26,424 nucleotides of DNA from Promethearchaeota archaeon (GTDB taxonomy: Archaea; Asgardarchaeota; Lokiarchaeia; Sigyniarchaeales; SOKP01). Each line of letters starts with the position of its first letter. Positions within the stretch are counted from its first letter, which is position 1. Under the pieces are notes generated by a model. The model searched no databases. It had not been told where the DNA came from and saw nothing but the letters and a program-made list of their open reading frames with translations. The stretch spans positions 1 through 26,424 of the forward strand of contig JBHLOC010000056.1 of assembly GCA_048940925.1 (NCBI GenBank), written 5' to 3'. Shown in pieces: positions 12,165-13,733 of this stretch. The position numbers were made by a program, and so were the translations under genes.

Positions 12165-13733
12165 CTAAATCTTTTCTAATACCATTCCACCTAATGTTAT
12201 AGGACCTCCTGATGCGTTATATATTTTTTCTGCTTTTTTCAATTTTGATTGATTTTGAGAATAAACTCGAAAAATAAGATCTCCTTCCTTTATTCTTGCA
12301 CCCTGCTTTTTTATGATTTCAACTCCAGAGTTTTTTGAATTAGGACACCCTACTGCTTTCGCAATTTGATTTATTATTGAATTTTTCACTTCTACAATAT
12401 AACCTTCTTTAGTTGCGAAAAATTCTTTGATATAAGGACCTATTATAATATCATCTGGTTTAATATCAGGATTTCCTCCTTGAATTTCAATAATTTTTTT
12501 CATTTTTTCATATGCTTTTCCACTTCTTAATATTTCTTTCGCTAAGTTCTGACCATTTCCTTTTTGAGCTTTACCACCCATTTCTAATAGCATCCCTGCT
12601 AAATCAGTAGATTTTTCAATTAACGAATTTGGACCTGCAGAATAATCCATTAATAACGTTAAAGCTTCTTTAGCTTCTAGAGCAGGTCCAATTGCATGAC
12701 CAATCGGTTGATGGGCTAATGTTAAAGCACATTCTGCTTCGATTCCTACATTAGCAGCAATTTCTTTAAATAAATAAGCAAATTGTTTACCCTTATCTGG
12801 TGTTGGAAATTTGGTTCCACCACCAACAGGTATATCAAGAACTAGTTTTTTTACCCCCAGAGAAAGCTTTTTAGTTAGAATTGATGGAATCATAAGACCT
12901 ACAGGATCCATATGTAAGGGACGTTCAATTTCAATTAAAACATTATCTGCTGGAGCTGTTTCAAGAGCTCCCCCCCAGATTATACACGATTTTTCTTTAT
13001 GTATAATATCATTTAATTCTTCTGGAGTAAATGCTACAGGAGCTAAAACTTCCATAGAATCTGCTGTTCCTGATGGGGATGTGATTGCTCGAGTTGAAGA
13101 TTTAGGTATTGTTAATCCTGCTGCTGCAACAATTGGGACAATGATCAGGGAGACTTTATTTCCTGGAACGCCACCTTTTAACAAAATTTACTAGATGTAA
13201 ATTTTTGTGCTATGTTTATCGTAAACATCCATTCCGAAATAAAAAATCTCTCCACTCCTAGTTTCTGATAAAGTTAGAGCTGTCATCTCCTCATTATCCA
13301 TTCCATTGATTGAGACACCTGTAATAAAGGCTGCTAGATCTATGCGAGATAACGATCCAGAAACAGCATCACTGATTATACTGGAAATCTCTTCACTAGT
13401 TATTTTTAATCCTTTTATCTTTTTTTGGATATATTTAAAAGAATCAGGAGGATCTGCTGGTTTTACAGAAACCACTGTTTTTTCATCTAAATCCTTCTTT
13501 TCTCTTAGAATGTCTAAGAAGATTCCTATTTCGCCAGATTGTACTATAGAATTTGAATAATCTATTTGTATAATTGCTATCCAGTATTTTTCTTCAAAAG
13601 ATTTTGATTTTAAATTTTTAATATATAAGCGTTCTCCCGCTTTTTGTCCTAGTTCCTGAGCATCTTTAATGTTTAATACCACATCTTTAGTGTTTCCTGT
13701 CTCAAAATTAATACTTTTTACTTTTAGCTTCAT
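12165..13733 (-). CDS. deoA: AMP phosphorylase (archaeal thymidine-phosphorylase family), interrupted by a candidate 30-nt intron; exons 13733..13207 and 13176..12165, 512 aa spliced
   Basis: The 5' ORF carries the AMPase N-terminal domain and ends ...DKHST. The 3' ORF continues GGVPGNK...PKSSTRAITSPSGTAD...APAD...LVLDIPVG. The two are in the same frame, separated by 30 nt containing TAG TAA. Confidence 0.9.
13177..13206 (-). other. Candidate archaeal bulge-helix-bulge mRNA intron (30 nt)
   Basis: mRNA reads UAGC-AC^A-AAAAUUUAC-AUCUA-GUAAAUUUU-GUUA-AA^A-GGU: a 4-bp helix UAGC/GUUA, two 3-nt bulges and a 9-bp intron stem. Cutting after the 2nd bulge nucleotide restores CAU AGC ACA GGU GGC (HSTGG). 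Confidence 0.8.

What the first reader, a model, noticed from the sequence alone, without database searches (positions are those of the whole stretch)
13165..13235. Candidate bulge-helix-bulge intron inside the active-site motif of an Asgard protein-coding gene (AMP phosphorylase)
Seen: the mRNA reads GAU AAA CAU AGC AC^A AAAAUUUAC AUCUA GUAAAUUUU GUUA AA^A GGU GGC GUU CCA. The 30-nt insert is in frame but contains UAG UAA. It forms a perfect 9-bp stem (13205-13197/13191-13183), a 4-bp central helix UAGC/GUUA (13212-13209/13182-13179, one G-U) and two exact 3-nt bulges, ACA and AAA. Known: archaeal tRNA-splicing endonuclease (EndA) cuts after the 2nd nucleotide of each bulge and RtcB ligates. 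That rule removes 13206..13177 and rebuilds DKHSTGGVPGNK, the phosphate-binding motif, in a 512-aa protein with no other lesion. The best-established archaeal mRNA intron is crenarchaeal cbf5; I know of none in AMP phosphorylase but cannot search the literature. Inference: Asgard archaea may splice mRNAs with tRNA machinery, possibly as an on/off switch, and other 'split genes' may hide such micro-introns. Caveat: the exon-exon helix next to the 3' bulge is weak (A-G mismatch, then C-G, A-U; distal GGAAUG/CGUUCC pairing is possible), so the motif is a relaxed BHB.
Basis: partly seen in the sequence, partly recalled or inferred. Interest (0 to 1): 0.95.

Follow-up and report, generated by a model that had tools for sequence, protein, structure and literature searches.

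The report
tRNA-type mini-intron in Asgard enzyme gene
The only AMP phosphorylase gene of this Asgard (Loki-type) archaeon is broken in its active-site motif by a 30-base insert shaped like a tRNA intron. The insert co-varies in 25 related genomes, so the mRNA almost certainly has to be cut and rejoined by the tRNA-splicing enzymes; published work shows this inside the coding sequence of only one archaeal gene, cbf5.

Summary
On the minus strand, 13177-13206 is a 30-nt in-frame insert carrying TAG and TAA, inside the DKHSTGGVPGNK motif of the genome's only AMP phosphorylase gene (TIGR03327). It folds as a 4-bp helix, a 3-nt bulge, a 9-bp stem and a 5-nt loop.

- 25 species-level genomes of Promethearchaeota (Asgard) carry a 30-nt insert at the same codon, and about 50 relatives lack it and read the motif uninterrupted.
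- 97.5% of helix cells pair, against 32-49% in slid controls. Ten of 13 pairs show compensatory double changes, and two deep lineages have entirely different stem sequences.
- Every insert holds a stop codon.
- Both exons stay intact (176+336 aa) with dN/dS 0.065 at dS about 1.4.
- The genome encodes a two-subunit EndA and RtcB.
- The 3' splice site sits in a loose loop, so the motif is the relaxed (HBh'-like) form.
- The gene tree needs at least 8 exact losses.

No RNA data could be obtained, so splicing itself is inferred. My own genome scan found six more such 30-31-nt introns, including a frame-shifting one in methylmalonyl-CoA mutase. This scan had already reported the same kind of intron in other genes of this genome. 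The on/off-switch idea remains untested.

The parts
13207..13733 (-). Exon 1 of the AMP phosphorylase gene (ATG 13733-13731; ends with the AC of the Thr codon); 176 codons counting the split Thr
   Evidence: Intact at 176 aa in all 24 complete intron-bearing genes. dN/dS 0.063.
13177..13206 (-). 30-nt BHB-type intron (third base of the 5' bulge through second base of the 3' bulge); contains TAG 13193-13191 and TAA 13190-13188
   Evidence: present at the same codon in 25 species and absent in about 50 relatives. Every copy carries at least one stop codon.
12165..13176 (-). Exon 2 (starts with the last base of the Thr codon, then GGT GGC...; stop codon 12167-12165); 336 codons
   Evidence: dN/dS 0.065. 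Aligns with T. kodakarensis AMP phosphorylase 4GA5.
13209..13212 (-). Exon half of the 4-bp central helix (UAGC: His third base plus the Ser codon)
   Evidence: 100% paired in 25 sequences; U-A to C-G double change in 10; AGY Ser codon in 25/25 intron-bearing genes against 17/47 intronless ones.
13206..13208 (-). 5' bulge ACA; the cut is inferred after 13207
   Evidence: 3 nt in all 25 copies (ACA or ACU); closed on both sides by conserved helices.
13183..13205 (-). Intron hairpin: 9-bp stem (13205-13197 / 13191-13183) with 5-nt loop 13196-13192
   Evidence: 96.4% paired, 8 of 9 pairs with changes on both sides; the loop sequence varies freely.
13179..13182 (-). Intron half of the central helix (GUUA)
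   Evidence: covaries with the exon half (GUUA, GCUA, GCUG, AUUG).
13176..13178 (-). 3' bulge or loop AAA; the cut is inferred after 13177
   Evidence: The third base is A, U, C or G among species, and the rebuilt codon is always ACN = Thr. The closing exon helix (13215-13214 with 13174-13173) is only 2 bp.

Best explanation
The 30 nt at 13177-13206 (minus strand) are an archaeal bulge-helix-bulge intron inside the coding sequence of AMP phosphorylase.

Proposed mechanism:
1. In the pre-mRNA, four exon bases (UAGC) pair with four intron bases (GUUA).
2. This helix is flanked by a 3-nt bulge and a 9-bp intron hairpin on one side, and by a 3-nt bulge or loop on the other.
3. [quoted passage not shown]
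4. RtcB (contig C40) joins the exons. This rebuilds the Thr codon and the phosphate-binding motif DKHSTGGVPGNK, giving a 512-aa enzyme.

What is shown: the structure, its conservation and covariation, the intact selected exons, the identity of the predicted product with intronless orthologues, and the presence of the enzyme genes.

What is inferred: that EndA and RtcB are the agents, and that splicing is efficient.

Evolution: the intron is inherited vertically, because intron variants are clade-specific. It has been lost exactly at least 8 times.
For: 1. Same codon, same 30-nt length and same 4+3+9+5+9+4+3 layout in 22 species of the genus and 3 more divergent genomes.
2; 97.5% of cells paired against 32-49% when partners are slid; 10 of 13 pairs changed on both sides; 0 of 500 shuffles reach any measure. 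L127 and L128 have wholly different stems that still pair.
3. RNAalifold predicts the helix, bulge and stem unaided.
4. All copies contain TAG, TAA or TGA, and the 10 encoded residues are not conserved.
5. Exons are 176+336 aa in 22 of the 25. Exon 2 reads 330 aa in G046, G048 is cut by a contig end, and L128's upstream frame is open for 186 codons. dN/dS is 0.065 against 0.054 in intronless genes at dS about 1.4. The intron is 77% identical between species, so it is itself constrained.
6. Intronless orthologues read DKHSTGGVPGNK, the predicted product.
7. The cut rule is verified independently in this genome. The 31-nt intron in methylmalonyl-CoA mutase gives SGHGTPEETNKRW only if cut after the second base of each bulge, which is what the intronless orthologues read.
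8. A catalytic EndA alpha and a His-less beta-like paralogue, plus RtcB, are present. Asgard EndA is reported as (alpha-beta)2 with the L1 loop that confers broad specificity (PMC5829648).
9. The gene is single-copy. A RuBisCO-like gene lies next to an e2b2-family gene, the possible pathway partners.
Against: - No RNA evidence: no spliced junction, circular intron or cleavage product has been seen.
- The 3' splice site is not a strict bulge. Its closing exon helix is 2 bp after an A-G mismatch and shows no informative covariation, so the motif is relaxed. Cleavage there depends on a broad-specificity enzyme whose activity was not tested.
- In the single-sequence minimum-energy fold the 4-bp central helix is not formed.
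Confidence: 0.86

Rival explanations
1. Conditional or inefficient splicing. The same BHB intron is removed by EndA/RtcB only under some conditions, so it acts as a post-transcriptional throttle or switch on AMP phosphorylase, in the manner of HAC1/XBP1. This is a refinement of the best explanation rather than an alternative to it.
For: The intron is itself under constraint (77% identity at dS about 1.4) and is kept in many lineages although exact loss is evidently possible. The weak 3' side could make cleavage rate-limiting. A negative-regulator role was proposed for the cbf5 intron (PMC2738675).
Against: Nothing measured here bears on regulation. About two thirds of relatives do without the intron, with the same selection on the protein. 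Conservation of the helices is needed for any splicing at all, so it does not by itself indicate a switch.
Confidence: 0.15
2. Split enzyme. The stop codons are real, and the gene makes two polypeptides (about 180 aa and about 339 aa from an internal TTG) that assemble into an active enzyme. The hairpin would be incidental or a translational coupling element.
For: ORFs 13191-13733 and 12165-13184 exist, with a TTG at 13184-13182.
Against: The break lies between T and GG of the phosphate-binding loop. The C-terminal tails of the would-be N fragment differ (KIYI, EIYI, FIAFSAI, YIEASSI). In L127 and L128 no ATG, GTG or TTG lies between the stop and GGT. RNA-level compensatory changes are not expected of a coding or restart signal. 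The 31-nt intron of the mutase shifts the frame.
Confidence: 0.03
3. Translational recoding. The ribosome bypasses the 30 nt (a hop as in T4 gene 60) or reads through the stops.
For: An in-frame 30-nt gap with a stop codon and a stable hairpin resembles the gene 60 coding gap superficially.
Against: There are no matched take-off and landing codons: ACA against ...UUA AAA in G000, and the flanks vary among species. One or two stops of all three kinds occur. Read-through would put 8-9 unconserved residues into the active-site loop. The conserved feature is the 4-bp exon-intron helix with 3-nt spacing, which hopping does not need.
Confidence: 0.03
4. Dead or dying gene, or assembly artefact. The insert is a lesion in a pseudogene or an error of one assembly.
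For: Read literally, the frame is broken by TAG TAA.
Against: 25 independent assemblies from many projects share the insert. There is no second lesion. dN/dS is 0.065 in both exons at saturated dS. The gene is the only AMP phosphorylase copy.
Confidence: 0.01
5. RNA-level removal by machinery other than EndA/RtcB, such as a self-cleaving element or another nuclease and ligase.
For: No enzyme assay was possible. The 3' site is not a canonical bulge.
Against: 30 nt is far too small for a group I or II intron, and no Rfam family matches in the window. The conserved geometry is exactly the EndA recognition unit. The inferred cut sites obey the BHB rule in this intron and in the mutase intron.
Confidence: 0.04

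Closest known systems
BHB intron in the cbf5 (pseudouridine synthase) pre-mRNA of Crenarchaeota (Watanabe 2002; Yoshinari 2006; Yokobori 2009, PMC2738675)
   Same: A short intron inside an archaeal coding sequence. It is bounded by a frequently relaxed bulge-helix-bulge motif and linked to a hetero-oligomeric splicing endonuclease. Its distribution is patchy, with secondary exact losses. It must be removed to make the protein.
   Different: A different gene (AMP phosphorylase, inside the phosphate-binding motif) and a different phylum (Promethearchaeota/Asgard, Loki-type). Here it is one of at least seven coding-gene introns in one genome, all 30-31 nt with the same 9-bp stem and 5-6-nt loop. 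cbf5 splicing was shown experimentally; this one is inferred.
Archaeal pre-tRNA BHB introns, including the intron-rich tRNA genes of Asgard archaea (PMC5829648; bioRxiv 10.64898/2026.10.13.758758)
   Same: The same recognition unit (4-bp helix between two 3-nt bulges, cut in each bulge) and the same presumed enzymes, (alpha-beta)2 EndA and RtcB. [quoted passage not shown]
   Different: The host RNA is an mRNA with no tRNA body to help folding. The exon half of the helix is made of codons (His third base plus Ser AGY), so protein and RNA constraints overlap. The Asgard tRNA-intron preprint does not mention mRNA introns.
BHB intron in the 5' UTR of Haloferax volcanii HVO_1309 mRNA (PMC7714728)
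   Same: An mRNA substrate of the archaeal splicing endonuclease, confirmed in vivo and in vitro.
   Different: It lies in the untranslated leader, not in the reading frame. It is euryarchaeal, with a homodimeric-type enzyme.
HAC1/XBP1 unconventional mRNA splicing in eukaryotes (IRE1 plus tRNA ligase/RtcB)
   Same: A protein-enzyme-catalysed, spliceosome-independent excision of a short intron from a coding mRNA, followed by RtcB-type ligation. The frame or product changes on splicing.
   Different: The nuclease is IRE1 acting on twin stem-loops, not EndA on a BHB. It is a regulated stress switch, which is not shown here.

Membership tests
Archaeal bulge-helix-bulge (BHB) intron | Central helix of exactly 4 bp formed between exon and intron bases | tested here: met
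   13212-13209 with 13182-13179. 100% paired in 25 sequences, with double changes at two pairs. Predicted de novo by RNAalifold.
Archaeal bulge-helix-bulge (BHB) intron | 3-nt bulge at the 5' splice site, closed by the central helix and an intron helix | tested here: met
   ACA/ACU 13208-13206 in all 25. The 9-bp stem is 96.4% paired, and 8 of 9 pairs covary.
Archaeal bulge-helix-bulge (BHB) intron | 3-nt bulge at the 3' splice site, closed by an exon-exon helix (strict hBHBh' form) | tested here: not met
   Three bases follow the central helix in all copies. The closing helix, however, is only C-G and A-U after an A-G mismatch, with 4 of 22 sequences unpaired at one pair and no double change. 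RNAalifold leaves the site in an internal loop. This makes it a relaxed HBh'/BHL-type motif, of the kind reported for cbf5 (PMC2738675).
Archaeal bulge-helix-bulge (BHB) intron | Cutting after the second base of each bulge restores a functional product | tested here: met
   The cut gives DKHSTGGVPGNK, identical to the intronless orthologues. The rebuilt codon is ACN = Thr in every variant. The rule is uniquely required by the 31-nt mutase intron.
Archaeal bulge-helix-bulge (BHB) intron | The host encodes a splicing endonuclease able to cut relaxed motifs, and an RtcB ligase | tested here: met
   Two EndA paralogues are present, one with and one without the catalytic His context. RtcB scores 556 bits. 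Broad specificity is taken from the literature (PMC5829648), not assayed.
Archaeal bulge-helix-bulge (BHB) intron | The intron is actually excised from the RNA (spliced junction, circular or linear intron) | not testable with these tools
   No RNA run was listed for this gene, so no reads could be laid.
AMP phosphorylase (TIGR03327; thymidine phosphorylase superfamily) | Full-length match above the curated cut-off, with the three domains in order | tested here: met
   550 bits against a cut-off of 535, even with the insert read through as X. Pfam finds Glycos_trans_3N, Glycos_transf_3 and PYNP_C. The best solved relative is 4GA5, the T. kodakarensis enzyme.
AMP phosphorylase (TIGR03327; thymidine phosphorylase superfamily) | Enzymatic activity on AMP | not testable with these tools
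   Only context is available: a RuBisCO-like gene next to an e2b2-family gene (below its cut-off) on C68.
Programmed translational bypass (T4 gene 60 type) | Identical take-off and landing codons flanking the gap | tested here: not met
   ACA before the gap; no ACN at the 3' edge in most species; the flanks vary.
Self-splicing group I / group II introns | A ribozyme core of hundreds of nucleotides | tested here: not met
   The insert is 30 nt, and no Rfam family matches in the window.

The most novel reading that the evidence does not exclude
The AMP phosphorylase intron may be one member of a living population of uniform 30-31-nt, protein-spliced micro-introns in the coding genes of Loki-type Asgard archaea. 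I verified at least seven in this genome, and earlier notes of this scan list more. These introns enter genes, persist under selection and are excised exactly from the DNA again and again. Core enzymes would therefore depend on EndA/RtcB, possibly as a regulated step. That would be an interrupted-gene, mRNA-splicing lifestyle in the closest prokaryotic relatives of eukaryotes, independent of group II introns and the spliceosome.
Probability: 0.3. Interest if true: 0.92.

Novelty: new member of a known kind. Interest (0 to 1): 0.8.

Why it matters
Papers I could search state that cbf5 of Crenarchaeota is the only archaeal coding sequence known to carry a BHB intron, besides one 5'-UTR case in Haloferax (PMC7714728, PMC2738675). 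I found none describing mRNA introns in Asgard archaea.

- Expression: a metabolic enzyme of an Asgard archaeon can be made only after tRNA-type splicing, and the same holds for at least six other genes of the genome. Gene expression in the nearest relatives of eukaryotes would therefore include routine mRNA splicing by protein enzymes.
- Annotation: such genes are called as two fragments or as pseudogenes.
- Intron evolution: exact, repeated intron loss occurs here in a genome where I found no RVT_1-type reverse transcriptase.
- Testability: the junction sequence is known, so a simple RT-PCR on enrichment cultures would test whether splicing takes place.

Tried and rejected
- RNA evidence: the look-up of sequencing runs (kind rna) on the whole gene listed no RNA holder.
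- Rfam and tRNA scans of the window found nothing.
- Hairpin as a repeated mobile element: 11 near-matches in the genome against 11 for the reversed control. Rejected.
RNAalifold proposes a slightly different distal pairing without double changes.
- Genome-wide BHB scan by structure plus ORF joining:
  - The background is high: 3752 passes against 3301 at random positions; 166 against 152 in a relaxed compact scan; 14 against 8 expected at exactly 30 nt.
  - The scan alone is therefore no statistic. Candidates had to be confirmed one by one through domain contiguity or orthologues.
  - C45:90069-90101 turned out to be two adjacent genes.
- aragorn with intron mode gave a noisy tRNA list (22 of 34 'with introns'), which I did not use as evidence.
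- Reverse transcriptase as the agent of exact intron loss: no RVT_1 (PF00078) match in this genome, which is 100% complete by markers. This is a single-family search, not proof of absence.
- Promoter and terminator scan around the gene: nothing above shuffles.

Full report
**Observation.** On the minus strand the window reads GAT AAA CAT AGC ACA AAA ATT TAC ATC TAG TAA ATT TTG TTA AAA GGT GGC. Two ORFs, 13733-13191 (180 aa) and 13184-12165 (339 aa), abut there. Read through with X at the two stops, the 522 residues match AMP phosphorylase TIGR03327 end to end (550 bits, cut-off 535). They carry the three Pfam domains of the thymidine phosphorylase superfamily. The best solved relative is the Thermococcus kodakarensis enzyme 4GA5. 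The 30 extra bases sit inside the DKHSTGG motif, which I know as the phosphate-binding loop of this superfamily. A single-sequence fold recovers the 9-bp stem. The hairpin is not a dispersed repeat.

**Comparative test.** I searched 40 relatives with the protein and then all 54 held genomes of the genus with 201 nt of DNA. Twenty-two species carry an insert of exactly 30 nt at exactly this codon. The other genomes with a match read DKHSTGGVPGNK without interruption. A scan of GTDB species genomes added three more divergent carriers, L109, L127 and L128. It also showed from the record titles that these are Promethearchaeota (Asgard, Loki-type) MAGs from many independent projects. That excludes an assembly artefact. 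Every copy contains at least one stop codon (TAG, TAA or TGA), and the ten encoded residues are not conserved.

**Structure.**
- 97.5% of cells pair, against 32-49% when the 3' partners are slid by 1-3 columns.
- Ten of 13 pairs have changes on both sides.
- No shuffle out of 500 reaches any of the five measures (the 22-sequence version is).
- The central 4-bp helix pairs in every sequence (UAGC/GUUA, UAGC/GCUA, CAGU/GCUG, CAGU/AUUG, CAGC/GCUG).
- In L127 and L128 the 9-bp stem has a completely different sequence and still pairs in 7 and 9 of 9 positions.
- RNAalifold, given no structure, returns exactly helix(4), bulge(3), stem(9), loop(5).

The exon half of the central helix is the third base of His plus the Ser codon. 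All 25 intron-bearing genes use AGY for that Ser, while 30 of 47 intronless relatives use TCN. This count is descriptive only, because the lineages are not independent.

The 3' side is weaker. After the 3-nt AAA there are only two pairs (C-G, A-U) behind an A-G mismatch. Neither that helix nor the distal pairing shows informative covariation. The motif is therefore the relaxed HBh'/BHL type, not the strict hBHBh'. Relaxed motifs are reported to be cut only by (alpha-beta)2 and epsilon2 endonucleases (PMC5829648), and they are frequent in the cbf5 intron (PMC2738675).

**The gene is alive.** Twenty-two of the 25 intron-bearing genes have exons of 176 and 336 codons and no other lesion. The other three: exon 2 reads 330 codons in G046, G048 is cut off by its contig end, and L128's upstream frame is open for 186 codons. 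Pairwise dN/dS among the carriers is 0.065, the same in both exons. It is 0.054 among intronless genes. The median dS is about 1.4, so synonymous sites are saturated. Yet the intron is 77% identical between species, so it is itself constrained. The genome has one AMP phosphorylase copy only. It also has a RuBisCO-like gene next to an e2b2-family gene, the usual partners of this enzyme, although the isomerase match is below its cut-off.

**Machinery.** The genome encodes two EndA-domain proteins.
- The one on C58 keeps the His-Ser context and the Lys of the catalytic subunit.
- The one on C18 lacks that His, as a structural beta subunit would.
- RtcB is present at 556 bits.

This agrees with the report that Asgard archaea have the (alpha-beta)2 enzyme with the L1 loop (PMC5829648), and with two paralogues found in most Asgard genomes (bioRxiv 10.64898/2026.10.13.758758).

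**The cut rule, checked independently.** My own structure-plus-ORF scan of the genome has a high background and is no statistic by itself. It did point to compact 30-31-nt candidates, which I then tested one by one.
- Methylmalonyl-CoA mutase, C71:54629-54659, 31 nt. This intron shifts the frame. Exon 1 matches the Pfam profile at 2-54 and exon 2 at 58-512. Five species carry it. About 35 further same-genus genomes give a match 31 nt shorter, and the five of these I translated read SGHGTPEETNKRWK. Only a cut after the second base of each bulge gives that sequence. A shift by one base either way gives a wrong residue.
- AIR-synthase-related gene, C30:66095-66124, 30 nt.
- Rab-like GTPase, C78:59767-59796; Ras profile 1-58 in exon 1 and 60-157 in exon 2.
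- GH38 mannosidase-like gene, C43:76068-76097.
- Thiolase-like gene, C77:31160-31189.
- Elp3-like radical-SAM gene, C40:183124-183154, 31 nt (for the last four).

All share a 9-bp stem, a 5-6-nt loop and A-first bulges (A[AC]A and A[AU]N). Earlier notes of this scan report the same kind of intron in further genes of this genome: aIF2-gamma, an EF-2 paralogue, an E1-like gene, an FeS protein and a hydrolase. I did not re-test those.

**History.** On the gene's own tree, presence is patchy. At least 8-9 changes are forced by well-supported branches. The outgroup genera and several basal lineages lack the intron, while the deep pair L127/L128 has it. Intron variants are clade-specific. The CAGU/GCUG form occurs in one clade with three intronless genomes nested inside it, and the AAAAYCUAU stem occurs in another. 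The simplest reading is vertical descent with repeated exact losses, as proposed for cbf5 (PMC2738675). Repeated gain at the same site is not excluded for the deep pair. I found no RVT_1 reverse transcriptase in this genome, so replacement by intronless alleles through recombination is at least as likely as RNA-mediated loss.

**Rivals.**
- A pseudogene or an artefact is excluded.
- Two separate polypeptides are unlikely. The break lies inside the catalytic loop, the tails differ, L127 and L128 have no start codon after the stop, and the conserved signal is RNA pairing.
- Ribosomal hopping lacks matched take-off and landing codons.
- Read-through would have to pass one or two stops of all three kinds.
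- Self-splicing is ruled out by size and by the empty Rfam scan.
- A conditional-splicing 'switch' is compatible with everything seen but supported by nothing measured.

**What is missing.** No RNA run was listed for this gene. Excision, the exact cut sites and the ligation are inferred from sequence comparison and from the known biochemistry of EndA and RtcB.

**Verdict.** This is a real, conserved, relaxed BHB intron in the coding sequence of AMP phosphorylase of a Loki-type Asgard archaeon. It is a new member of the kind founded by the crenarchaeal cbf5 intron. It is of high interest because it is one of many in this genome and lineage.

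Noticed in passing
G000 contig C71:54629-54659 (+) = L069:1630-1660: A 31-nt, frame-shifting BHB intron in methylmalonyl-CoA mutase. 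Exons match Pfam profile 2-54 and 58-512. Five species carry it; about 35 further same-genus genomes give a match 31 nt shorter, and the five of these I translated read exactly the predicted spliced sequence SGHGTPEETNKRWK.
   Followed up: yes
G000 contig C30:66095-66124 (+) = L068:1596-1625: A 30-nt BHB intron in an AIR-synthase-related gene, with a near-canonical motif (6-7-bp exon-exon helix, bulges AAA and AUC). Exon 2 starts at AIRS profile position 43.
   Followed up: partly
G000 contigs C78:59767-59796 (-), C43:76068-76097 (-), C77:31160-31189 (-), C40:183124-183154 (-): Four more compact BHB-bounded inserts of 30, 30, 30 and 31 nt. They lie in a Rab-like GTPase (Ras profile 1-58 | 60-157), a GH38 mannosidase-like gene (junction THWDRE|WYLPF), a thiolase-like gene and an Elp3-like radical-SAM gene (junction GHKVD|KIELIIMGGTF).
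   Followed up: partly
The seven introns of G000 listed above, plus window 13176-13212: All have the same build: 4-bp exon-intron helix, 3-nt bulge, 9-bp stem, 5-6-nt loop. The 5' bulge is AAA or ACA and the 3' bulge is A[A/U]N. The stem sequences are unrelated between genes, so the introns share a form, not a sequence.
   Followed up: partly
G065: C128:7277-7477 (with intron) and C103:4916-5086 (without): One genome bin holds both an intron-bearing and an intronless AMP phosphorylase fragment. Contamination of that bin is given as 9%, so these may be two strains or a mixed bin.
   Followed up: no
Loci L071-L137: MAGs that GTDB places in one genus carry NCBI submitter labels of five different Asgard 'phyla': Promethearchaeota, Odinarchaeota, Thorarchaeota, Hodarchaeota and Hermodarchaeota. 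Some record labels are evidently unreliable.
   Followed up: no
G000 contig C68:36457-37329 (+) and 37400-38278 (-): A RuBisCO large-subunit homologue (316 bits) lies next to an e2b2-family gene (242 bits, below the ribose-1,5-bisphosphate isomerase cut-off). These are the likely partners of AMP phosphorylase in the archaeal AMP pathway.
   Followed up: partly
Whole genome G000: No RVT_1 (PF00078) reverse transcriptase was found, although coding-gene introns in this genus appear to be lost exactly and often.
   Followed up: partly
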